Under the pieces are notes generated by a model. That model did not search any database. It saw only the letters and a list, made by a program, of their open reading frames with translations, and was not told the origin of the DNA. The translations under genes and the position numbers were made by a program. This document shows, piece by piece, positions 50,643 to 63,514 of a stretch of DNA of 64,000 nt. Origin of the DNA: Escherichia coli (lineage in GTDB: Bacteria > Pseudomonadota > Gammaproteobacteria > Enterobacterales > Enterobacteriaceae); the NCBI RefSeq assembly GCF_009931435.1, contig NZ_CP043414.1; one strand, 5' to 3'. Position 1 is the first letter of the stretch, and each line of letters opens with the position of its first letter.

Positions 50643-50846
50643 ATGTTTGGTAACTTAGGACAGGCAAAAAAATATCTCGGCCAGGCGGCGAAGATGTTGA
50701 TTGGCATTCCAGACTACGACAACTACGTCGAGCATATGAAGACCAACCATCCCGACAAGCCGTACATGAGCTATGAAGAATTCTTCCGCGAACGCCAGAA
50801 CGCGCGCTACGGCGGCGATGGTAAAGGCGGTATGCGCTGTTGTTAA
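50643..50846 (+). CDS. yjiX: YjiX (DUF466 family small protein)
   Basis: 67 aa [67 protein letters not shown]. Confidence 0.8.
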
Positions 50847-50856
50847 TGGAGAGAGC

Positions 50857-51813
50857 ATGAACCCGATTGCAGTTACCCTACTCACCGGTTTTTTAGGCGC
50901 AGGCAAAACCACCCTGCTGCGCCATATTCTTAATGAACAGCACGGCTACAAGATTGCCGTGATTGAAAACGAATTCGGCGAAGTCTCCGTTGATGATCAA
51001 CTGATTGGCGACCGCGCCACGCAGATCAAAACGCTGACCAACGGCTGCATCTGTTGTTCGCGCTCCAACGAGCTGGAGGACGCGCTACTCGACCTGCTGG
51101 ATAATCTCGACAAGGGCAATATTCAGTTCGATCGTCTGGTCATTGAATGCACCGGCATGGCCGATCCCGGCCCGATTATTCAGACCTTTTTCTCCCATGA
51201 GATTTTATGCCAGCGTTACCTGCTGGACGGCGTGATTGCGCTGGTGGATGCGGTACATGCCGATGAGCAGATGAACCAGTTCACCATCGCCCAGTCACAG
51301 GTTGGCTACGCCGACCGCATTCTGCTGACCAAAACCGACGTCGCAGGCGAAGCAGAAAAACTGCGTGAACGCCTGGCACGCATCAACGCCCGCGCACCGG
51401 TCTACACCGTCACCCACGGCGACATCGATCTGGGCCTGCTGTTCAACACCAACGGTTTTATGCTGGAAGAAAACGTCGTCAGCACCAAACCGCGTTTCCA
51501 CTTTATCGCGGATAAACAAAACGATATTTCGTCGATTGTGGTAGAACTGGATTACCCGGTAGATATCAGCGAAGTTTCCCGCGTGATGGAAAACCTGCTG
51601 CTGGAGTCGGCGGATAAACTGCTGCGTTACAAAGGGATGCTATGGATTGACGGCGAACCAAATCGCCTGCTGTTCCAGGGCGTCCAGCGCCTCTACAGCG
51701 CCGACTGGGACCGCCCGTGGGGCGATGAAAAACCGCATAGCACGATGGTGTTTATCGGGATTCAGCTGCCGGAGGAAGAGATTCGGGCTGCGTTTGCGGG
51801 GTTGAGGAAGTAA
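50857..51813 (+). CDS. yjiA: COG0523/CobW-family metal-binding GTPase YjiA
   Basis: Start placed at MNPIAVTLLTGFLGAGKTTLLRHIL... (318 aa); GCICCS metal-binding motif. Confidence 0.9.
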   Translation: MNPIAVTLLTGFLGAGKTTLLRHILNEQHGYKIAVIENEFGEVSVDDQLIGDRATQIKTLTNGCICCSRSNELEDALLDLLDNLDKGNIQFDRLVIECTGMADPGPIIQTFFSHEILCQRYLLDGVIALVDAVHADEQMNQFTIAQSQVGYADRILLTKTDVAGEAEKLRERLARINARAPVYTVTHGDIDLGLLFNTNGFMLEENVVSTKPRFHFIADKQNDISSIVVELDYPVDISEVSRVMENLLLESADKLLRYKGMLWIDGEPNRLLFQGVQRLYSADWDRPWGDEKPHSTMVFIGIQLPEEEIRAAFAGLRK

Positions 51814-51878: not shown

Positions 51879-52628
51879 TTATGAAACATCACGAAATACA
51901 CAGGTAAGTTCTTTAGGACTTGCTTTCCATATATGGTCAAAGCCACTCGACAGCATGACTTCTATTTTTCCTTCCGGACTTTCAATTAGTAAATAGCGAT
52001 CATGGCAGTTTGTATATTTGGGATTTGTAGTGATTTGCACACTCCATTCAGGATGGATACAATGAACAAAATTACTATTTATTTTACTTCCGTTTTGGAC
52101 TGCAGCGACACCTACTGCGATTTCTGAAAATTCAATAACAAGCTCTTTTCTAGGTAGTACGGAATGAAATAAGCTGCATGTATTCTCCCAATTCTGTGCA
52201 AAGTAATTATCGCATATAATTACTTTTTTTGCATTGCAACATAGCATTTCCAGATACTTTTTTAAATATATTCTATTATCTGTAGGGCTTAATGTAACGG
52301 TAACTTGATTATTAACCATACCTTTTTTATAATGTACAAAGGGAAGTGATAAATTATCATTCTCAGTAAGGATTATTTTCAACAACGATTTAGATGCTAA
52401 AGTAACAAGATCATCATCACTTTCAGGCTGACTTGCTAACATAGATAAATATTGTCGATATTCTAACTCCGGCATCTTCAATCCTAAATTTCTTGCCTCA
52501 ATCCATTGCCTTTTGTTAGTTAAATAAGGTAGTACTAGTTTTTTATGTAATCTCTTCACCTTATTCTTATCATCCATATTTTCATATGCAACTAATAAAG
52601 ATGTATCAAGAACCATTTGATAAGACAT
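51879..52628 (-). CDS. Hypothetical protein, no recognisable domain; third gene of the accessory operon (gene C)
   Basis: 249-aa ORF; ATG 4 nt after the ATPase stop with a GAGGT Shine-Dalgarno; AT-rich coding sequence. Confidence 0.6.
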   Translation of the reverse strand: MSYQMVLDTSLLVAYENMDDKNKVKRLHKKLVLPYLTNKRQWIEARNLGLKMPELEYRQYLSMLASQPESDDDLVTLASKSLLKIILTENDNLSLPFVHYKKGMVNNQVTVTLSPTDNRIYLKKYLEMLCCNAKKVIICDNYFAQNWENTCSLFHSVLPRKELVIEFSEIAVGVAAVQNGSKINSNFVHCIHPEWSVQITTNPKYTNCHDRYLLIESPEGKIEVMLSSGFDHIWKASPKELTCVFRDVS

Positions 52629-52632
52629 TTCT

Positions 52633-53682
52633 TTACCTCATCTTCATCAAATCATCTAAGGTTGCATCAAAAAAACCTAAAGGGAATCCCGTAACATTCT
52701 CTTGCAGATCGGTAAATTTCCCACCTTCATTAACTCTCATCGAGATAAAATCTTTATCCACATCAGGTTTATAATGTACAGAAATATCCTCAGAAGTTAT
52801 AACATCTTCATAAACCAAATACGCAAGTTTATTGATTAAATGTTCACAATGCGTTTCTACAATAATCTGGATACCCTTACTTGCTACAAATGCTAAAAAA
52901 ATTGCCAAATGAGACTGCGCTTTCGGATGCAATTGAATTTCGGGATTTTCTAGCAAAATAAGATCGCCTTTTTTTGCCATCAAACAAATAATCAAAACCT
53001 TTGCAATATAACTCATCCCAGCCCCAAGATTAAGAGGAGAAACATTTCCTTCAAGCTCTTTTAAGGTAAAAGCGACCTTAATCTGGTCACCAACTTTTTC
53101 AGTAACTAATTCAGACGTCGTTCCTGTAATCAGTTTCAACCAATAAGATAATTGATATGCAAGTGTTGTAGATTCGTGAACTTTCACCAGATATTCAGGT
53201 ACTGGCAAATGTTTCATTTTATCAAATGTTGAAAACAAGAATTCTCCTGCAACACCTACTCGACGTTCTGCGGTGGGCACAAATTCTTGTGCCCCCAAGC
53301 GGTTGGCATTCAGATAGAGCAACTCAGGTTCACTACCAGGCACTCTTGGCTCGTATTGATATCCCAGACGACTATCAATTTCGATATTTTCTGAGTTGAG
53401 CGTTAACGAATGAGAATTTTTTTCTGTATCCTGGACTGTTATAACAATAGATTTTGCGTTATTTTTTTTATTTCTAATAACAGGAAAATCAGCTAGAAAT
53501 CGGATAACTTCTTCCATACTATACTGATTAACAGAAGCGCTATTTTTAATTAGTAACATCAATGCCTGAATAACGCTGGATTTACCAGAAGAGTTAGTTC
53601 CAGTTAAAATGGTCAGTGGTGATAACACCAGACTTGTTGAGCCTAAACTTTTAAATCCTTGAATGTTAATATTTGTAAGCAT
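52633..53682 (-). CDS. ABC-type/AAA_21-like ATPase, second gene of the accessory operon (gene B)
   Basis: 349 aa; N-terminal MLTNINIQGFKSLGS... with Walker A GTNSSGKSS; C-terminal Walker B and H-loop (DLILLENPEIQLHP...IIVETHCEHL); start overlaps the upstream gene by 17 nt. Confidence 0.75.
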   Translation of the reverse strand: MLTNINIQGFKSLGSTSLVLSPLTILTGTNSSGKSSVIQALMLLIKNSASVNQYSMEEVIRFLADFPVIRNKKNNAKSIVITVQDTEKNSHSLTLNSENIEIDSRLGYQYEPRVPGSEPELLYLNANRLGAQEFVPTAERRVGVAGEFLFSTFDKMKHLPVPEYLVKVHESTTLAYQLSYWLKLITGTTSELVTEKVGDQIKVAFTLKELEGNVSPLNLGAGMSYIAKVLIICLMAKKGDLILLENPEIQLHPKAQSHLAIFLAFVASKGIQIIVETHCEHLINKLAYLVYEDVITSEDISVHYKPDVDKDFISMRVNEGGKFTDLQENVTGFPLGFFDATLDDLMKMR

Positions 53683-54796
53683 TTTTAATCCTTTCCATTA
53701 TTTCCTTCGCAAAATCAAAACGCATATTTACATATTGTGTTGTATCAATTGCACCAGAAAAAATACCAATCTCATCAAAATTATACTTGTATTGTTCAAT
53801 AAGCTGTTTTAATTCAATATTTTTTGATAAAAATTCAAAACTTATCTGACTGAATACCATAACTAACACTTCGAATAATCCCATATTCACTGGTCGCCTT
53901 TTAGCACCTGATTTTGTTGAAAATCTAAATGCTTCTGAACCCAACGCTTTATAGACATTAGTCATACCAGTTATACAAGCATCTTCAACTTCTTCCAGTA
54001 ACTCATCATCAGCTTTTGTATTAATGAATTTCATCGCAGATGCTAAAAAAGCATCAATATCAGACCTAAATTCAACACCTGGCATTTGATTTGTTACAAG
54101 CAAATAAAATCCTACGAACCGCAAAACCAGATATCTGTCTCGCATACGCTCAGATTTTACGCCATTACCTGTTGCAAGCCTGAAAGACTCGTGTTCAGCG
54201 AGATCCTTAATTAACTTTGTGGCCTTGCCTTGATAAAGAGCATGCCGCATTTCCTGTTTATTTAGATTAATACCACTTCGATTTACACGCTCAAAAATAT
54301 TAAATTTCACATATTCAGGTGTTGGGGGTTGAATCACATAAGAATGTAACTGGCAATCTTCAAGCTTTGCTTGTAATAATGGAGGAATATCAGAAAATTT
54401 TTTTCCTCTCAAGTCAGGCAACATAGATAAATCAGTTAAAGAAAATTCATTGTTAACATAGCGTTTCAATGCAGATATTCGTTGTTTGCCATCAATGATT
54501 TGCCTGACACCATTTTCATCCTCAAAAAGATAAATTAATGGAATAGGAATCCCCATTAAAATAGATTCAATTAATTCTGACTGGTGTTTTCTATCCCAGA
54601 CAAGTTTACGCTGAAAATCTGGAGCAAGAACCAGTTGCCCACGAGCTTCGCGACGGAGTAATTCGAAAACACTGGATTGCTCTTTTGCAATTCGAACCTC
54701 AGTATCTGTCCCCATTTGATGCGGATGAGATGTTAACTCAAGCTCTTCTTGATCTTCGAGTTCAATGCTGTCGTTTTCTACATCCGCATTACTCAT
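53666..54796 (-). CDS. DUF262 (ParB/sulfiredoxin-like NTPase, GmrS-type) domain protein, first gene of the accessory operon (gene A)
   Basis: 376 aa; acidic N-terminal tail then DUF262 motifs PDFQRKLVWDRKHQSELIESILMGIPIPLIYLF...IIDGKQRISAL and FNIFERVNRSGINLNKQEM; no DUF1524/HNH motif found. Confidence 0.75.
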   Translation of the reverse strand: MSNADVENDSIELEDQEELELTSHPHQMGTDTEVRIAKEQSSVFELLRREARGQLVLAPDFQRKLVWDRKHQSELIESILMGIPIPLIYLFEDENGVRQIIDGKQRISALKRYVNNEFSLTDLSMLPDLRGKKFSDIPPLLQAKLEDCQLHSYVIQPPTPEYVKFNIFERVNRSGINLNKQEMRHALYQGKATKLIKDLAEHESFRLATGNGVKSERMRDRYLVLRFVGFYLLVTNQMPGVEFRSDIDAFLASAMKFINTKADDELLEEVEDACITGMTNVYKALGSEAFRFSTKSGAKRRPVNMGLFEVLVMVFSQISFEFLSKNIELKQLIEQYKYNFDEIGIFSGAIDTTQYVNMRFDFAKEIMERIKNAYKY

Positions 54797-55036: not shown

Positions 55037-57469
55037 ATGGCGGAACTGAACCTAAGTAACCTGACGGAAGCAGACATCATTACCAAATGCGTTATGCCAG
55101 CCATTCTCAATGCAGGCTGGGACAACACAACGCAAATCAGACAGGAGGTCAAACTCCGGGACGGTAAAGTCATCGTACGTGGTAAAGTTGCGGCACGCAG
55201 AACGGTAAAATCTGCTGACATCGTGCTGTATCACAAACCAGGCATTCCCTTAGCCGTGATTGAAGCAAAAGCCAACAAACATGAAATTGGCAAAGGGATG
55301 CAACAGGGCATTGAATATGCGCGCCTGCTGGACGTTCCTTTTGTTTTTGCCACCAACGGGGATGGCTTTATCTTCCGCGATGCCACCGCAGCCGAAGGTG
55401 AATGCCTTGAAAAGCAAATAACGCTGGATGACTTCCCCTCCCCCGCTGAACTCTGGCAAAAATTCTGCCTCTGGAAAGGATACACACAAGCTCAGCTTCC
55501 GGTGATTACTCAGGACTATTACGACGATGGCAGCGGTAAATCGCCACGTTATTACCAGCTTCAGGCAATCAACAAAACCATTGAAGCCGTCTCCAACGGG
55601 CAAAACCGCGTTCTGTTGGTCATGGCGACCGGAACAGGGAAAACCTATACCGCATTCCAGATCATCTGGCGCCTGTGGAAATCAAAAAATAAAAAACGCA
55701 TTCTGTTCCTTGCCGATCGCAACATTCTGGTCGACCAAACCAAAAATAATGATTTCCAGCCATTTGGTACGGCAATGACCAAAGTCAGCGGACGCACCAT
55801 TGATCCCGCTTATGAAATTCACCTCGCGCTCTATCAGGCTATAACTGGCCCGGAGGAAGACCAAAAAGCGTTTAAACAAGTCGCACCAGATTTCTTCGAT
55901 CTGATAGTCATCGACGAATGCCATCGCGGCAGCGCATCCGAAGACAGCGCCTGGCGAGAGATCCTTGATTATTTCAGTTCCGCCACCCAAATTGGCTTAA
56001 CCGCCACGCCAAAAGAGACGCATGAAGTCTCCAGCACGGATTACTTCGGCGATCCGGTTTACGTCTACTCGCTAAAAGAAGGGATCGAAGACGGCTTCCT
56101 CGCCCCTTATAAAGTTGTCCGTGTTGATATTGATGTTGATCTGCAAGGCTGGCGCCCAACCAAAGGGCAAACTGACTTAAACGGCGAAGTGATCGACGAT
56201 CGTATCTATAACCAGAAAGATTTCGATCGCACGATGGTAATCGACGAACGCACAGAACTGGTTGCCAGAACCATTACCGACTACCTCAAGCGCACCAATC
56301 CGATGGATAAAACCATCGTCTTCTGTAACGACATCGATCATGCAGAACGTATGCGCCGCGCCCTGGTTAATCTCAACTCGGAGCAGGTGAAAAAGAACGA
56401 CAAATACGTCATGAAAATCACCGGCGATGATGAAATTGGCAAAGCTCAGTTGGATAACTTCATCAACCCGAAAAAACCGTACCCGGTTATCGCGACCACT
56501 TCAGAGCTGATGACCACCGGTGTGGATGCTAAAACCTGCAAACTGGTAGTACTGGACCAGAACATCCAGTCGATGACCAAATTCAAGCAGATTATCGGTC
56601 GTGGTACACGCATCGACGAACGTTACGGCAAACTCTGGTTTACCATCCTCGACTTTAAAAAAGCCACCGAACTGTTTGCCGATGAGCGTTTCGATGGCAT
56701 TCCCGAAAAAGTCATGGATACCACACCAGAGGATATCACCGATCCAGAATCTGATTTTGAAGAGAAACTCGAAGAAATCAGCGAACATGACGACGAACAG
56801 GTAACGGGCGTTGATGAACCGCCTGCGCCACCATACCAGGTTACCGATACCGATGATGTCGGCCCACTTCCGGAAGAAGACGAGAAGAAAATCCGCAAGT
56901 TTCACGTCAACGGTGTCGCGGTGGGCGTTATTGCGCAGCGTGTTCAGTATTACGATGCCGACGGTAAACTGGTTACCGAATCTTTTAAAGATTACACCCG
57001 CAAAACACTGCTCAAAGAATATGCCTCGCTGGATGACTTTACCCGCAAGTGGCAGGACGCCGATCGCAAAGAAGCGATCATTCACGAGCTGGAGCAACAG
57101 GGGATCATCTGGGAAGTACTGGCAGAAGAAGTCGGTAAAGATCTCGACCCGTTCGACATGCTTTGCCACGTAGTGTATGGTCAGCCGCCGTTAACCCGCA
57201 AAGAGCGCGCCGAGAACGTGCGCAAGCGGAACTACTTCACAAAATACTCTGAAGCAGCGCAAGCCGTGCTCGATAATCTGCTGGATAAATACGCCGATGC
57301 GGGCGTACAGGAGATCGAAAGTATTCAGGTGCTGAAACTTAAACCATTCGACAGCATGGGCACTTTACCGGAGATTATTAAAACCGGATTTGGCGACCGT
57401 AACGGGTATAATCAGGCGCTCAGCGAGCTGGAAAACGAAATCTACCAATTACCGCCCCGCTCTGCTTAA
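55037..57469 (+). CDS. hsdR: Type I restriction enzyme R subunit HsdR (short, Type IB-like form)
   Basis: 810 aa; N-terminal PD-(D/E)xK nuclease region and SF2 helicase motifs [26 protein letters not shown]. Confidence 0.9.
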
Positions 57470-57483
57470 CAACTCTCTTTTGC

Positions 57484-57522
57484 GCCTTCTGCAACCATCA
57501 TGTTGCAGAAGGCCTTGTTTTT
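57484..57522 (+). terminator. Rho-independent terminator between hsdR and hsdM
   Basis: Perfect 12-bp stem GCCTTCTGCAAC / GTTGCAGAAGGC with a 6-nt loop, followed by CTTGTTTTTC. Confidence 0.55.
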
Positions 57523-57535
57523 CATGGAATACAAC

Positions 57536-59005
57536 ATGTCTATCAGCTCAGTAATCAAATCATTACAAGATATTATGCGCAAAGATGCCGGTGTGGATGG
57601 CGATGCGCAGCGTCTCGGTCAGCTCTCCTGGCTGCTGTTTTTGAAAATCTTCGATGCCCAGGAAGAGGCGCTGGAACTGGAGCAGGATAACTATCAATAT
57701 CCGATCCCACAGCGTTATTTGTGGCGCAGTTGGGCCGCCAACGCGCAGGGCATTACCGGTGATTCCCTGCTGGAATTCGTTAATGATGATCTGTTCCCGG
57801 CGTTGAAAAACCTCACTGCGCCTATCGATAAAAACCCACGCGGCTACGTGGTGAAGCAGGCGTTCAGCGATGCCTATAACTATATGAAAAACGGTACGCT
57901 ACTGCGTCAGGTGATCAACAAGCTGAACGAAATTGACTTTACCAGCGCCAGCGAACGCCATCTGTTTGGTGATATTTACGAACAGATCCTTAAAGATCTG
58001 CAATCTGCGGGCAATGCTGGCGAATTCTATACTCCACGCGCCGTCACTCGCTTTATGGTGGATCGCGTTGATCCGAAACTCGGCGAATCCATTATGGACC
58101 CGGCCTGCGGTACGGGCGGTTTTCTTGCCTGCGCATTTGATCATGTAAAGAACAAATACGTGAAGAGCGTCGCCGATCATCAGACTCTGCAACAACAGAT
58201 CCACGGTGTCGAGAAAAAACAGCTTCCGCACCTGCTGGCGACCACCAATATGCTGCTGCACGGCATTGAAGTACCGGTACAAATTCGTCACGACAACACC
58301 CTGAATAAACCGCTTTCCTCCTGGGATGAGCAACTGGATGTGATTGTTACCAACCCGCCATTTGGTGGCACGGAAGAAGACGGTATTGAGAAGAACTTTC
58401 CGGCAGAGATGCAAACCCGCGAAACGGCGGATCTGTTCCTGCAACTGATTGTGGAAGTACTGGCGAAAAACGGTCGCGCGGCGGTGGTATTGCCGGATGG
58501 CACACTATTTGGCGAAGGCGTTAAAACCAAAATCAAAAAACTGCTTACCGAAGAGTGCAACCTGCATACCATCGTGCGTTTACCGAATGGGGTGTTTAAC
58601 CCCTATACCGGCATTAAAACCAACCTGTTGTTCTTTACCAAAGGTCAGCCAACCAAAGAGATTTGGTTCTATGAGCATCCGTATCCGGCGGGCGTGAAAA
58701 ATTACAGTAAAACCAAGCCGATGAAGTTTGAAGAGTTTCAGGCGGAGATCGACTGGTGGGGGAACGAGGCCGATGGTTTTGCCAGCCGCGTCGAGAATGA
58801 GCAGGCGTGGAAAGTCAGCATTGATGACGTGATTGCGCGTAACTTCAATCTGGATATTAAAAACCCACATCAGGCGGAAACCGTTAGCCATGATCCGGAC
58901 GAGCTGTTAGCGCAGTATGCAAAGCAGCAGGCGGAGATCCAGACGCTGCGTAATCAACTGCGCGATATTCTTGGCGCTGCGCTGTCTGGCAAGGAGGTTA
59001 ACTGA
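57536..59005 (+). CDS. hsdM: Type I restriction-modification N6-adenine DNA methyltransferase HsdM
   Basis: SAM motif DPACGTGGFL and catalytic NPPFGG; start placed at MSISSVIKSLQDI... after the hairpin (the track ORF starts at 57500, inside the hairpin). Confidence 0.9.
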   Translation: MSISSVIKSLQDIMRKDAGVDGDAQRLGQLSWLLFLKIFDAQEEALELEQDNYQYPIPQRYLWRSWAANAQGITGDSLLEFVNDDLFPALKNLTAPIDKNPRGYVVKQAFSDAYNYMKNGTLLRQVINKLNEIDFTSASERHLFGDIYEQILKDLQSAGNAGEFYTPRAVTRFMVDRVDPKLGESIMDPACGTGGFLACAFDHVKNKYVKSVADHQTLQQQIHGVEKKQLPHLLATTNMLLHGIEVPVQIRHDNTLNKPLSSWDEQLDVIVTNPPFGGTEEDGIEKNFPAEMQTRETADLFLQLIVEVLAKNGRAAVVLPDGTLFGEGVKTKIKKLLTEECNLHTIVRLPNGVFNPYTGIKTNLLFFTKGQPTKEIWFYEHPYPAGVKNYSKTKPMKFEEFQAEIDWWGNEADGFASRVENEQAWKVSIDDVIARNFNLDIKNPHQAETVSHDPDELLAQYAKQQAEIQTLRNQLRDILGAALSGKEVN

Positions 59006-60753
59006 TGAGTGTGGAAAAGCTGATCGTTGATCATATGGAAACCTGGACCTCGGCGTTGCAAACCCGTTCCACCGCCGGGCGCGGCAGTTCCGGAAAAATT
59101 GATTTATATGGCATTAAGAAATTACGTGAGCTGATTCTGGAACTGGCTGTGCGCGGTAAACTGGTGCCGCAGGATCCGAATGATGAACCGGCGTCGGAGC
59201 TGCTGAAGCGTAATGAAGAACGGAAAAAAGAATTAGCGCGCAATAATGGTATGAAAACCACAGCAAGCACTAATATCCATGGAAATGAATATTATATCGA
59301 TACCCCCGAAAAGTGGTCATGGATAAGACTTGGTAATTTAGCTAAATTCATCGATTACCGAGGGAAAACACCACATAAAAAAGAAAATGGTATAAGGCTT
59401 ATAACAGCAAAAAATATCAGAAAGGGCTGTATTGATCTCAATCCAGAAGAATTCATATCTGAAGAAGATTACATATCATGGATGACAAGAGGCTTTCCTA
59501 AATGTGGTGATATTTTATTCACAACTGAAGCACCACTGGGGAATGCAGCGATTATTGATTTAGACGGAAAGTTCGCTCTTGCTCAACGTTCTATCTGTTT
59601 TCAATGGCATACTCCAGAGATAAGCCCTTTTATGCTTATTCAAATCCTGGCGATCCCCTTCCAGTCACAACTAAGTGACAAATCTACAGGCATGACCGCA
59701 ACAGGAATAAAAGCGTCTAAGTTAAAAGAGATCCCTGTTATTTTACCACCTTACCAAGAACAAATACGTATTGTATCCAAAGTACAGGAGTTCATGTCCC
59801 TATGTGACCAACTGGAACAGCAATCCCTGACCACTCTGGACGCACATCAGCAACTGGTTGAAACCCTGTTGGGAACGCTTACAGACAGCCAAAACGCCGA
59901 GGAACTGGCTGAAAACTGGGCGCGTATTAGCGAGCATTTCGACACCCTATTTACCACCGAAGCCAGCGTGGATGCGTTAAAACAGACCATTCTGCAACTG
60001 GCCGTAATGGGCAAACTTGTGCCGCATGATCCGAATGACGAACCAGCCTCTGAACTGCTCAAACGAATTGCGCAGGAAAAAGCTCAACTGGTGAAAGAAG
60101 GAAAAATAAAAAAACAAAAACCGTTGCCGCCGATTAGCGATGAGGAAAAACCTTTTGAACTGCCGGAAGGGTGGGAATGGATTAGACTAGGAAATATTGG
60201 TGAAGTTAAAGGGGGCGGAACCCCAAGTAAAAACAATCCTGATTTTTGGAAAGGTAATATTCCATGGGTTTCACCAAAGGATATGAAGGTTAATTACATC
60301 TCCAAAAGTCAACTAAATATTTCAAAAGAGGCTGTATTGGAGAGTTCAGTACATCTAATTCCTGAAAATAGTCTTATTTTTGTTGTCCGAGGCATGATTT
60401 TAGCCCATACATTCCCCGTAGCAATAACAAAAAAAGAAGTCACTATTAATCAAGATATGAAAGCCATATCAACTAATCAATTAAATACTGATTTTTTAAT
60501 TTACTTACTTAAAGCAAACGAGACTCGAGTAATATGCTTAGTTGACCGCTCCTCTCATGGCACATGTAAACTTGTTTCAGATAAACTTTTCAATTTGGTT
60601 TTACCGTTGCCTCCATTAGAAGAACAATTTCGTATTACAGAACGAATAAATATGCTATTAGCTTATTGTGATAGATTGAAAAATTATATAAATCTAAAAA
60701 AACAAACCCAACTGCACCTTGCAGATGCACTCACTGACGCGGCGATAAACTAA
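59005..60753 (+). CDS. hsdS: Type I restriction-modification specificity subunit HsdS
   Basis: 582 aa; ATG overlaps the hsdM stop (TGATG); two target-recognition domains, each preceded by a conserved repeat (LAVRGKLVPQDPNDEPASELLKR / LAVMGKLVPHDPNDEPASELLKR). Confidence 0.9.
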   Translation: MSVEKLIVDHMETWTSALQTRSTAGRGSSGKIDLYGIKKLRELILELAVRGKLVPQDPNDEPASELLKRNEERKKELARNNGMKTTASTNIHGNEYYIDTPEKWSWIRLGNLAKFIDYRGKTPHKKENGIRLITAKNIRKGCIDLNPEEFISEEDYISWMTRGFPKCGDILFTTEAPLGNAAIIDLDGKFALAQRSICFQWHTPEISPFMLIQILAIPFQSQLSDKSTGMTATGIKASKLKEIPVILPPYQEQIRIVSKVQEFMSLCDQLEQQSLTTLDAHQQLVETLLGTLTDSQNAEELAENWARISEHFDTLFTTEASVDALKQTILQLAVMGKLVPHDPNDEPASELLKRIAQEKAQLVKEGKIKKQKPLPPISDEEKPFELPEGWEWIRLGNIGEVKGGGTPSKNNPDFWKGNIPWVSPKDMKVNYISKSQLNISKEAVLESSVHLIPENSLIFVVRGMILAHTFPVAITKKEVTINQDMKAISTNQLNTDFLIYLLKANETRVICLVDRSSHGTCKLVSDKLFNLVLPLPPLEEQFRITERINMLLAYCDRLKNYINLKKQTQLHLADALTDAAIN

Positions 60754-60914: not shown

Positions 60915-61000
60915 ATGTGCGCCAACACACCCGCACCGCTCATCACAATCCCTATTTCACGAGAATAGTAATCATGACTGACACGCATTCTATTGCACAA
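60915..61000 (-). ncRNA. symR: Expected position of the SymR antisense sRNA (boundaries not determinable from sequence)
   Basis: Placed only by analogy: in K-12 SymR is encoded antisense to the symE 5' UTR and start codon; no independent sequence evidence. Confidence 0.25.
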
Positions 61001-61315
61001 CCGTTCGAAGCAGAAGTCTCCCCGGCAAATAACCGTCAATTAACCGTGAGTTATGCGAGCCGCTACCCGGATTACAGCCGTATTCCCGCCATCACTCTGA
61101 AAGGTCAGTGGCTGGAAACCGCCGGTTTTACCACCGGCACGGCGGTAGATGTCAAAGTGATGGAAGGCTGTATTGTCCTCACCGCCCAACCACCCGCCGC
61201 CGAGGAGAGCGAACTGATGCAGTCACTGCGCCAGGTGTGCAAACTGTCAGCGCGTAAACAGAAGCAGGTGCAGGAGTTTATTGGGGTGATTGCCGGTAAA
61301 CAGAAAGTCGCCTGA
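60974..61315 (+). CDS. symE: SOS-induced toxin-like protein SymE (AbrB/SpoVT fold)
   Basis: 113 aa [48 protein letters not shown]...; track ORF starts at an upstream Met (60917). Confidence 0.85.
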
Positions 61316-61322
61316 TACATTG

Positions 61323-61354
61323 ACCCGGTAGCGCCAGTGCTACCGGGTATTATT
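61323..61354 (+). terminator. Terminator hairpin between symE and the convergent GmrSD-like gene
   Basis: ACCCGGTAGC-GCCAGT-GCTACCGGGT hairpin followed by ATTATT. Confidence 0.5.
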
Positions 61355-61361
61355 CGCCACG

Positions 61362-63110
61362 TTATACCAACGCGCTCTCCATCTGTTTTTCAAATGCCTG
61401 ACGGATTAATCCCATAATGTAAGGAAGTTGTGCGAGGTCGCTGAAACCAATTTCTACATCGCCATTGCCCCAGCGCCCAACATTTGTCACATCTTTGGCA
61501 ATACCTTTCGGATCGACCAGTTCATGAAACTGCATATTAAGCGACAATCGCAGTCGGCTTTTTTGCGGCACAACATCAACAAAATTCGTTTCCGCTTTAA
61601 ACGCAATATAGAGCTTCAATACTTCCTGCGTGATCCCTGCGTCCAGGCGCAAAACTTCATCGCTAAGATGATCGAATAACACCCGGCTATGCGAACCATC
61701 AGCAAGAAAAGGATAATCACTCAGGCTGTAACTGGTTTTGTTTTCCGGCTGCCCCCGATAAACAGCTAAAACCTCTTCAGGAAGAGAAGGCGCTTGCCAG
61801 ACCTGAACCGCGAGATCGGCCAGACGATCGGCTCGGGCGTGAATGGCAGCTTCATCCCATTTTTCGCACTGTCCAAGACCGATATTCAAATAAAGCGGGC
61901 TATGCTTAAAGCCGTCTTCAATATCGCGTTTTTCCGCGAAAGGTCTGTCACTGTAGCGGGAGTTATAGCGCGTTAAAGTGAGATTCCCCAACGTATGCAA
62001 CAATTCTTTATGAATACGCTGCCAGTCGCTTCCCAGCTCTTCGCGCCATTTAGCCGACAAATTTTCGTTCTGCGGCATAATGTGCTCAATCGTAAACTCT
62101 TCCACGCGCTCTCTGCGTTTATTGTTTTCCAGTCGTCGTAACCAGTAACTGCGACTGCGGAAGTTATAGAGATCGCGAACTTTTAATTCCCGTTTAAATT
62201 CATCATCGTTGGGGAAACGACGATATGAAGGTAGATTCAGAAAATGTACCTGAATACTTTCCAGATAATTTTCTTTATTAATAACTTTATAAAAAGTGGC
62301 AAACGTCTTGTTAAGAGAATTTGTTGGAATCGCACATACTGCACGGCGGAAAACATAAGATTCAATTAAACGAATTATGCTCAGGAAATCTTCACGAGAC
62401 AAAACGCCATTTTTATAGTCATGATAAAGCGCCAGTAAGAAAGGATACGCCACATCGACTTTTAACTCGCGCAAATCCTGAAAAGCCGTAGCAAGCGATT
62501 TGTCACTTTCTTTTCCCAATGCCATTGCACAGTAATACTCCGCGTAGATGTGAATATCTTCAACCAGCCGATCTACGCCTTTTTCAGCAACACTCTGGCT
62601 ACGGGCATGGAGTTTAAAAGCCTCATAGACTTCATCTGTCCGAGGGATCTCCCCCGTTTTTACCGTCAGATAATGACGCATAAAACTGTCAAAATATTCG
62701 CTGTAACCTTGCTGACCAAAGGCGACTTCCATGGGTCGCCAGTGATCTTCATACAACCGGGTTTGATGCTCTGGTTCGAGACCCATCAGAATAAAATTGC
62801 GCACCAGATCGGCCTGACTTAACGCCTTACCGGTGGAGTTCATACTTTCAAAAATCAGTTGCGGATTATCCTGACCACGATTAAGCGCCACATCGACAAT
62901 TAATAACTTTGCTAACCCACGACATAAGGGGATCAAGTCATCACCGAGTTTGGCAATTTGTTCATCAAAGAAAGTAAAGTTTTCCATTATTCGATGGGAA
63001 TAGTTTTCTGGCATTGGTCTTTGTTTTATTAACGCCAGCAAACTGTCTTTATCAGTCTCGGTAAGCAGTAATTTAAATCCTTTCTCGCCGGACTCATAAG
63101 GATTGAGCAA
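61362..63110 (-). CDS. GmrSD-family (DUF262 C-terminal part + DUF1524 His-Me finger) protein lacking the N-terminal DGQQR core; possibly the yjiT-equivalent locus
   Basis: 582-aa ORF with a TTG start right after an in-frame stop; DUF262 distal motif IFESMNSTGKALSQADLVRNFILMG; DUF1524 motif EHIMPQNENLSAKW...LHTLGNLTLTRYNSRYSD; only 64 bp separate it from yjiS. Confidence 0.7.
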   Translation of the reverse strand: MLNPYESGEKGFKLLLTETDKDSLLALIKQRPMPENYSHRIMENFTFFDEQIAKLGDDLIPLCRGLAKLLIVDVALNRGQDNPQLIFESMNSTGKALSQADLVRNFILMGLEPEHQTRLYEDHWRPMEVAFGQQGYSEYFDSFMRHYLTVKTGEIPRTDEVYEAFKLHARSQSVAEKGVDRLVEDIHIYAEYYCAMALGKESDKSLATAFQDLRELKVDVAYPFLLALYHDYKNGVLSREDFLSIIRLIESYVFRRAVCAIPTNSLNKTFATFYKVINKENYLESIQVHFLNLPSYRRFPNDDEFKRELKVRDLYNFRSRSYWLRRLENNKRRERVEEFTIEHIMPQNENLSAKWREELGSDWQRIHKELLHTLGNLTLTRYNSRYSDRPFAEKRDIEDGFKHSPLYLNIGLGQCEKWDEAAIHARADRLADLAVQVWQAPSLPEEVLAVYRGQPENKTSYSLSDYPFLADGSHSRVLFDHLSDEVLRLDAGITQEVLKLYIAFKAETNFVDVVPQKSRLRLSLNMQFHELVDPKGIAKDVTNVGRWGNGDVEIGFSDLAQLPYIMGLIRQAFEKQMESALV

Positions 63111-63173
63111 ATAATAACCACTTCCTTGTGAAGGTTATAGAGAAATCCGGTTTATCTGCGATGAATTGCCCCC

Positions 63174-63338
63174 TCACTCCACATCCTCCCTGCGTAACCC
63201 AATATCCCTCAACCGTTCATCACTCATCTGCTGTAACACGCGTCGGGTCTGCATTTGCCGCCGCCAACGCCTCACCGCCTGCCAGAGTTGCACCAGGCCG
63301 ATAAACGGCGCTTTAGCTCTGTTTTCGTGAAATTCCAT
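63174..63338 (-). CDS. yjiS: DUF1127 small protein YjiS
   Basis: 54-aa ORF MEFHENRAKAPFIGLVQLWQAVRRWRRQMQTRRVLQQMSDERLRDIGLRREDVE; below the 60-aa cut-off of the ORF track. Confidence 0.75.
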   Translation of the reverse strand: MEFHENRAKAPFIGLVQLWQAVRRWRRQMQTRRVLQQMSDERLRDIGLRREDVE

Positions 63339-63514
63339 CTGCTGCCTCCTCATCTTTCAGAGGCTTCATCATCCGTCTTCTGGCAGTTCATAATACAGAT
63401 GCAAATATTACTTTTATTTAACATACAGACAGGTTAAAACAACATCTGCATCCGGTTTTTTAGCCTCATCTGTACCGGTTTTTCTCTCTGTATGGTCCAC
63501 ATAAGGAATACAGC

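What the first reader, a model, noticed from the sequence alone, without database searches (positions are those of the whole stretch)
61362..63110. GmrSD-like gene missing its N-terminal DGQQR core, occupying the mcrBC side of the locus
The 582-aa ORF carries the distal DUF262 motif and a complete DUF1524 His-Me finger region, but the frame opens with a TTG right after a stop codon, only 64 bp from yjiS. There is no room for the ~100 N-terminal residues, including the DGQQR nucleotide-binding core, found in intact GmrSD enzymes. It is therefore either a 5'-truncated remnant (possibly the counterpart of the K-12 yjiT fragment) or a naturally shortened variant, potentially a regulator-less nuclease. 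A C-terminal ~150-aa extension after the nuclease motif is uncharacterised.
Basis: partly seen in the sequence, partly recalled or inferred. Interest (0 to 1): 0.6.

Follow-up and report, generated by a model that had tools for sequence, protein, structure and literature searches.

The report
Deletion-truncated GmrSD restriction gene remnant
This is the broken remnant of a known type of E. coli anti-phage DNA-cutting enzyme gene: a 370-base deletion removed its start and the part that binds and burns nucleotides, so it is most likely an ordinary, recently inactivated pseudogene.

Summary
Window 61362..63110 (-) is a 582-codon ORF that opens at a TTG 63 bp from yjiS. It keeps only the distal half of DUF262, a complete DUF1524 His-Me nuclease region and a C-terminal DUF5655 domain.

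The cause is a 370-bp deletion between imperfect 8-bp direct repeats (TTATTATT / TTACTATT). Relative to the intact 697-aa allele, it removed the native ribosome-binding region, the ATG and codons 1-115. The intact allele sits at the same yjiS-symE position, and its deleted segment is present in about 1,400 of 5,426 complete E. coli genomes. The lost part holds the QR and DGQQR NTPase motifs, 11 of the family's 22 invariant residues and three of the four strands of the ParB/Srx-like core.

Homologues from many phyla are mostly 690-705 aa and start at residue 1, so there is no natural short form. No displaced N-terminus exists in the window. K-12 YjiT is unrelated.

The deletion junction is absent from all 5,426 complete genomes. 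The exact protein recurs in nine contigs from independent assemblies, so the allele is real and confined to one lineage.

The C-terminal extension folds like YdhG/YjbR.

GmrSD homologues replacing mcrBC in the immigration control region are already published. Verdict: an ordinary recent pseudogene of low interest.

The parts
61362..63110 (-). 582-codon remnant ORF. It corresponds to codons 116-697 plus the stop of the intact 697-aa gmrSD-DUF5655 gene. The TTG 'start' is really Leu116.
63110..63117 (-). Deletion junction, TTATTATT on the - strand. It is the surviving copy of an imperfect 8-bp direct repeat (TTATTATT / TTACTATT) that flanks the 370 bp present in intact alleles.
   Evidence: The 44-bp junction probe has no match in 5,426 genomes. 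The control probe across the intact left boundary hits 1,363 genomes.
62790..63044 (-). Residual distal half of the DUF262/GmrSD_N domain (residues 23-107), including the FESMNSTG...DLVRN motif.
61815..62213 (-). Complete DUF1524/GmrSD_C His-Me (HNH) nuclease domain (residues 300-432), with the E-H and N residues intact.
61386..61685 (-). C-terminal DUF5655 domain (residues 476-575) with a YdhG/YjbR-like alpha/beta fold.
63121..63127 (-). Fortuitous Shine-Dalgarno-like AAGGAAG, 10 nt upstream of the TTG. Its predicted duplex with the anti-SD is -6.3 kcal/mol, against -3.3 for the native ATG site.
63135..63137 (-). In-frame TAA that closes the reading frame 9 codons upstream of the TTG.
63174..63338 (-). 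yjiS (DUF1127), the conserved upstream neighbour on the same strand.
60974..61315 (+). symE, the conserved convergent downstream neighbour.

Best explanation
The ORF is a recently created pseudogene. Its ancestor was a single-chain GmrSD-family enzyme of 697 aa with four parts: a DUF262 ParB/Srx-like NTPase, a helical linker, a DUF1524 HNH nuclease and a DUF5655 YdhG/YjbR-like domain. That gene occupies the yjiS-symE slot of the E. coli immigration control region in roughly a quarter of strains, in place of mcrBC.

Shown: in this lineage, 370 bp were lost between the imperfect direct repeats TTATTATT and TTACTATT. The pattern fits slipped mispairing or microhomology-mediated deletion. The loss covers the last 32 bp of the upstream spacer (with the native ribosome-binding region), the ATG and codons 1-115. 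The remaining frame stays open and happens to begin at a TTG, which is really Leu116.

Inferred: the lost segment carries both NTPase motifs and most of the N-domain core. Characterised relatives need NTP binding and hydrolysis for defence. The remnant should therefore not work as a restriction enzyme, and if translated it probably misfolds. This strain's ICR defence would then rest on its EcoAI-type type I system and the NsnABC genes.
For: - Intact allele: uninterrupted 697-aa ORFs at the same locus in L001, L003, L007 and L009-L011. The window protein aligns from residue 116 onward at about 98.6% identity.
- Deletion: exactly 370 bp, with an 8-bp overlap of the two BLAST pieces.
- Frequency: the deleted segment is present in 1,400 of 5,426 complete E. 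coli genomes. The junction 44-mer is present in none, and the positive control hits 1,363.
- Real allele: the exact 582-aa product is on 9 contigs from independent assemblies with the same neighbours.
- Family length: 118 of the best 120 homologues are 696-731 aa (the other two, 572 and 676 aa, keep the N-terminus). 131 of 150 representatives at 50% clustering start at residues 1-40.
- Lost residues: 11 of 22 invariant columns (P21 Q24 R25 W29 D40 G56 D78 G79 Q80 Q81 R82) lie in the deleted part.
- Structure: in the AF2 model (pLDDT 89.3), the deletion removes strands 2-7, 53-62 and 74-78 and helices 8-14, 31-46, 80-96 and 108-116.
- Fold relatives: DndI 1e-16, SspE 4e-14, BrxU 4e-5.
- Literature: BrxU DGQQR mutants lose phage resistance, and no cleavage occurs without NTP binding and hydrolysis (PMC8565348). 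DndI R87A loses ATPase activity and defence (PMC11662687).
- Recency: no further stops or frameshifts. Lineage-specific changes are 7 synonymous and 3 non-synonymous.
Against: - The remnant frame is fully open. The junction places an SD-like AAGGAAG 10 nt before the TTG, with a better predicted anti-SD pairing than the native site.
- No terminator-like site separates the remnant from yjiS, so expression cannot be excluded.
- In DndI, the closest solved relative, nuclease activity does not need the ATPase, and the isolated C-terminal domain binds DNA 14-fold more tightly. Some residual activity is therefore conceivable.
- No expression or activity data exist. The specificity of even the intact 697-aa enzyme has not been tested, as far as the papers read here show.
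Confidence: 0.87

Rival explanations
1. The truncated product is translated from the junction-created SD/TTG, or from read-through of yjiS. It then acts without its NTPase switch, as an unregulated HNH nickase, a DNA binder or a dominant-negative decoy.
For: The 582-codon frame is open. An SD-like AAGGAAG lies 10 nt upstream of the TTG, with a duplex energy of -6.3 kcal/mol. No terminator-like site follows yjiS. The DndI C-terminal domain alone binds DNA more tightly, and the DndI nuclease is ATPase-independent (PMC11662687). The two-chain GmrS+GmrD of CT596 retains activity (PMC4437046).
Against: - The truncation is not at a domain boundary. Residues 116-225 of the N-domain remain without three of its four strands, which favours misfolding.
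- BrxU shows no cleavage without NTP binding and hydrolysis.
- The CT596 two-chain enzyme still needs GmrS, and no DUF262 N-terminus is encoded elsewhere in the window.
- An unregulated nuclease would be toxic, yet the allele persists in several isolates.
- The allele is absent from 5,426 complete genomes, which argues against selection for it.
Confidence: 0.07
2. It is a naturally short isoform of the family: a legitimate gene that begins at this position.
For: The gene callers behind public assemblies called it as a 582-aa protein. One representative, P0154 (603 aa), begins aligning at query residue 108.
Against: Nearly all homologues begin at residue 1 with conserved QR and DGQQR motifs. 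The late-starting representatives begin at scattered positions (42-259), as fragments do. The DNA comparison shows a plain 370-bp deletion relative to alleles about 98% identical at the same locus.
Confidence: 0.02
3. It is a sequencing or assembly artefact, or the N-terminus sits in another frame nearby because of a frameshift.
For: None was found beyond the general possibility.
Against: The same junction and the exact protein occur in GCA_002965045.1 and in independent Logan assemblies (SRR23937428, which has one SNP, and SRR25824453). tblastn of the missing 115 aa against the whole window finds nothing (best E 0.83).
Confidence: 0.01
4. It is the counterpart of the K-12 yjiT pseudogene fragment.
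For: Both lie next to yjiS on the mcrBC side of the ICR.
Against: BLASTP of the intact 697-aa protein against K-12-type YjiT gives E 0.19, which is not significant. K-12-type genomes match the query DNA only over yjiS. In K-12, yjiT is followed by DEAD/DEAH helicase fragments, which is a different module.
Confidence: 0.01

Closest known systems
[not shown]
   Same: Same locus, between yjiS (or rpn) and symE-hsdSMR, and same family. The ATCC 8739 allele (L003) is about 97% identical in DNA to the window remnant.
   Different: The window allele lacks the first 115 codons and the native translation start. The published homologues are only predicted and have not been assayed. The match of old locus tags to these ORFs is inferred, not checked.
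[quoted passage not shown]
   Same: The intact allele has the same DUF262 (DGQQR NTPase), helical linker and DUF1524 (HNH) architecture. Foldseek gives E 3.7e-5 to 7p9k, and the PADLOC mREase_IV model also matches.
   Different: Only about 13% identity to BrxU. There is an extra C-terminal DUF5655 domain. The substrate is unknown. The window copy lacks the NTPase core.
DndI (PDB 9JFL) and SspE (6JIV, 7DRR): phosphorothioate-sensing DUF262-DUF1524 nucleases
   Same: These are the closest solved relatives by sequence (phmmer 5e-13) and by fold (1e-16 and 4e-14). They share the DGQQR ATPase and the HNH nickase.
   Different: They work with adjacent dnd or ssp modification genes. The neighbours here are type I R-M genes, symE, yjiS and Nsn genes. 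Identity is 16-18%. Neither has a DUF5655 domain.
YdhG / YjbR / COG5646 (DUF1801, DUF419) small alpha/beta proteins, and the T4 MotA C-terminal domain
   Different: Only 8-15% identity, and here it is fused to a nuclease. A DNA-binding role is an inference from YjbR and MotA (my own knowledge of the 'double-wing' proposal). It was not tested.

Membership tests
GmrSD family (DUF262 + DUF1524 type IV restriction enzymes) | N-terminal DUF262 ParB/Srx-like NTPase domain with the (I/V)DGQQR motif | tested here: not met
   The window ORF matches only GmrSD_N model positions 102-198 of 199 and has no DGQQR. The intact allele has it at residues 78-82.
GmrSD family (DUF262 + DUF1524 type IV restriction enzymes) | C-terminal DUF1524 His-Me/HNH nuclease with the (D/E)H...N...N residues | tested here: met
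   GmrSD_C E 4.8e-26, model positions 2-137 of 138. E457/H458, N491 and N498 (intact-allele numbering) are conserved in the family and present in the window translation.
GmrSD family (DUF262 + DUF1524 type IV restriction enzymes) | Common descent with characterised members, by sequence or fold | tested here: met
   PADLOC Orf5 2.5e-223, HEC-06 and mREase_IV. PDB sequence hits to DndI and SspE. Foldseek hits to DndI, SspE and BrxU.
GmrSD family (DUF262 + DUF1524 type IV restriction enzymes) | NTP-stimulated cleavage of modified (hmC, glc-hmC, 5mC) DNA and restriction of T-even phage | not testable with these tools
   This needs enzymology or plaque assays. No assay of this 697-aa subfamily was found in the papers read.
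PT-sensing DndI/SspE effectors | Genetic linkage to dndBCDE or sspABCD modification genes | tested here: not met
   The neighbours are yjiR, yjiS, symE, hsdSMR (EcoAI type), NsnABC and yjiA. The same neighbours occur in other strains. Only window 46-64 kb was annotated.
K-12 YjiT | Sequence homology to YjiT | tested here: not met
   BLASTP E 0.19.
Pfam DUF5655 / YdhG-YjbR-like fold | Profile match and an alpha-beta4/5-alpha sandwich fold | tested here: met
   [not shown]

The most novel reading that the evidence does not exclude
The deletion did not simply kill the gene. By fusing an SD-like sequence to an in-frame TTG, it created an expressed, NTPase-less HNH-DUF5655 protein. That protein would act as a constitutive nickase or DNA binder, or as a decoy for phage anti-GmrSD inhibitors: a natural 'GmrD-only' derivative.
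Probability: 0.05. Interest if true: 0.5.

Novelty: already known. Interest (0 to 1): 0.15.

Why it matters
The finding matters little on its own. It is one more strain-level loss in a hypervariable defence island whose GmrSD-for-McrBC replacement is already published.

It has three modest uses.
- It gives an exact, checkable lesion (370 bp, 8-bp microhomology) for annotating this lineage's gene as a pseudogene rather than as a 582-aa protein.
- Together with the O157:H7 frameshift, the IS1 and IS421 insertions and an internal in-frame deletion, it shows that this ICR gmrSD is repeatedly inactivated in E. coli.
- It points to an untested, very widely transferred GmrSD-DUF5655 subfamily. Members are at least 69% identical from E. 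coli to Kiritimatiella. Its substrate and the role of its YdhG/YjbR-like domain are unknown.

Tried and rejected
- A displaced N-terminal exon or frameshift: tblastn of the missing 115 aa against all six frames of the window found nothing (best E 0.83, non-colinear).
- K-12 YjiT homology: none.
- NCBIfam: no family for either the full-length or the truncated protein.
- The same deletion in 5,426 complete E. coli genomes: none, and the control probe worked.
- Promoter and terminator consensus scans around yjiS-gmrSD in the window and in L001: uninformative, with counts at or below shuffle expectation.
- Identifying the source assembly (PTRH01 / GCA_002965045) in the literature: no hit.
- A search for a conserved short isoform among 150 representatives: the late starts are scattered, as fragments are.
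- The substitution pattern of the remnant as a sign of decay: 7 synonymous against 3 non-synonymous lineage-specific changes. No decay is detectable, so this says only that the deletion is recent.

Full report
**Observation.** Window 61362..63110 on the minus strand is a 582-codon ORF that starts at a TTG. The nearest in-frame stop is a TAA nine codons upstream, at 63135..63137. The yjiS stop codon ends at 63174, which leaves 63 bp between the two genes. Pfam finds only the distal half of GmrSD_N/DUF262 (model positions 102-198 of 199, residues 23-107, E 2.8e-7). It finds a complete GmrSD_C/DUF1524 domain (residues 300-432, E 4.8e-26) and a DUF5655 domain (residues 476-575, E 2.2e-13). The 'uncharacterised' C-terminal extension has a Pfam name.

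**Context.** The neighbours are yjiA (50773..51813), three minus-strand genes matching PADLOC NsnC/B/A (51879..54796), an EcoAI-family type I hsdR-hsdM-hsdS (55037..60753), symE (60974..61315), the remnant ORF, yjiS and yjiR. This is the E. coli immigration control region (ICR). In a K-12-type genome the yjiS-symE slot holds yjiT, DEAD/DEAH helicase fragments, mcrC and mcrB.

**What happened to the gene.** A megablast of window 61300..63400 against 5,426 complete E. coli genomes finds the locus in 1,286 genomes at 80% coverage or more. Every top hit comes as two pieces, with extra DNA between yjiS and the ORF. In NZ_AP027764 (L001) and ATCC 8739 (L003) that DNA completes an uninterrupted 697-aa ORF. 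It begins MKATEARLLDFLKRSQQFVIPIYQRTYSW... and contains VIDGQQRLTT. The window protein starts at residue 116 of this ORF.

Pairwise alignment shows a clean 370-bp deletion (L001 3292..3661). The two alignment pieces overlap by 8 bp. The left copy of the repeat reads TTATTATT and the right copy TTACTATT, and the window keeps TTATTATT at 63110..63117. The deletion removes the last 32 bp of the spacer, the ATG and 115 codons. The TTG 'start' is simply Leu116.

The polarity of the event is clear, because the N-terminal domain is conserved across phyla. Of the best 120 homologues, 118 are 696-731 aa (from Citrobacter, Halomonas, Psychrobacter, Kiritimatiella and others; 69-98% identity). The other two are 572 and 676 aa and keep the N-terminus. 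In the best 150 representatives at 50% clustering, 131 begin within query residues 1-40. The rest begin at scattered positions between 42 and 259, as fragments do.

**Is the deletion real, and how common is it?** A 44-bp probe centred on the junction matches none of the 5,426 complete genomes. A control 44-mer across the intact left boundary matches 1,363 genomes. The deleted 370 bp are present in 1,400 genomes. The exact 582-aa product is nevertheless on nine contigs. GCA_002965045.1 is 100% identical to the window over 5.6 kb. The independent Logan assemblies SRR23937428 (one SNP) and SRR25824453 carry it too, all with the same neighbours. It is a genuine allele of one lineage, not an artefact. 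tblastn of the missing 115 aa against the whole window finds nothing (best E 0.83), so there is no displaced N-terminal piece.

**What was lost.** In an alignment of 54 full-length family members, 22 columns are invariant. Eleven of them (P21 Q24 R25 W29 D40 G56 D78 G79 Q80 Q81 R82) lie in the deleted 115 residues. An AlphaFold2 model of the intact protein (pLDDT 89.3, pTM 0.73) shows that the deletion removes strands 2-7, 53-62 and 74-78 and helices 8-14, 31-46, 80-96 and 108-116. Only strand 184-191 of the N-domain sheet remains.

The closest solved structures to the model are DndI (9jfl, E 1e-16), SspE (7drr, 4e-14) and BrxU (7p9k, 4e-5). The sequence search agrees. PADLOC places the protein in its GmrSD-like models: Orf5 2.5e-223, HEC-06 and mREase_IV.

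Published mutagenesis bears on the consequence. [quoted passage not shown] DndI R87A loses its ATPase activity and most of its defence (PMC11662687). By inference, the remnant cannot work as the restriction enzyme it came from.

**Age.** The remaining 582 codons carry no stop or frameshift. Against three intact alleles, the lineage-specific differences are 7 synonymous and 3 non-synonymous (H354R, D445N, M602L). No decay is visible, so the deletion is recent.

**Could the remnant still do something?** The junction places AAGGAAG 10 nt upstream of the TTG. Its predicted pairing with the anti-SD (-6.3 kcal/mol) is better than at the native ATG (-3.3). No terminator-like site follows yjiS. In DndI the nuclease is ATPase-independent, and the isolated C-terminal domain binds DNA 14-fold more tightly.

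A translated, unregulated nuclease is therefore conceivable. The truncation, however, leaves half a domain without its core, which favours misfolding. BrxU-type enzymes need the NTPase cycle. A free nuclease would be toxic. Nothing suggests selection for the allele. I give this reading about 7%.

**Verdict.** This is an ordinary, recent pseudogene created by a microhomology-flanked deletion in a known hypervariable defence island. Interest is low.

Noticed in passing
L001 3324..5417; L003 1824..3917; L007 3663..5756; L009-L011: RefSeq/PGAP annotates the uninterrupted 697-aa ORF of many E. coli genomes as two features: a pseudogene 'DUF262, missing C-terminus' and a separate 387-aa 'GmrSD' CDS. 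In six of the seven loci checked the ORF is intact, so an intact defence gene appears to be systematically mis-split.
   Followed up: partly
[not shown]
   Followed up: partly
hits H2, H66, H10; protein P0023: The same ICR gmrSD has other independent lesions: IS421 and IS1 insertions, a 3' loss, and an in-frame internal deletion between two VDVA-coding repeats (572-aa product). The gene is repeatedly inactivated in E. coli.
   Followed up: no
window 51879..54796 (-): Three genes match PADLOC NsnC, NsnB and NsnA (E 2e-71, 1.5e-78, 2e-110). They lie between yjiA and an EcoAI-family hsdR, which is the position held by mrr in K-12.
   Followed up: no
L001 3284..3291 vs L007: Between two strains with different upstream flanks, the high-identity part of the gmrSD cassette begins at GGTTATTATTGCG. 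That is exactly the left breakpoint of the window's deletion. The AT-rich repeat may therefore be a recurrent recombination point at the cassette edge. L007 also keeps only a degenerate 3' half of yjiS.
   Followed up: no
homologue list: The 697-701-aa GmrSD-DUF5655 protein is at least 69% identical across very distant bacteria (Enterobacteriaceae, Halomonas, Psychrobacter, Kiritimatiella, Competibacteraceae). This points to recent, wide horizontal spread of an enzyme that has not been assayed.
   Followed up: no
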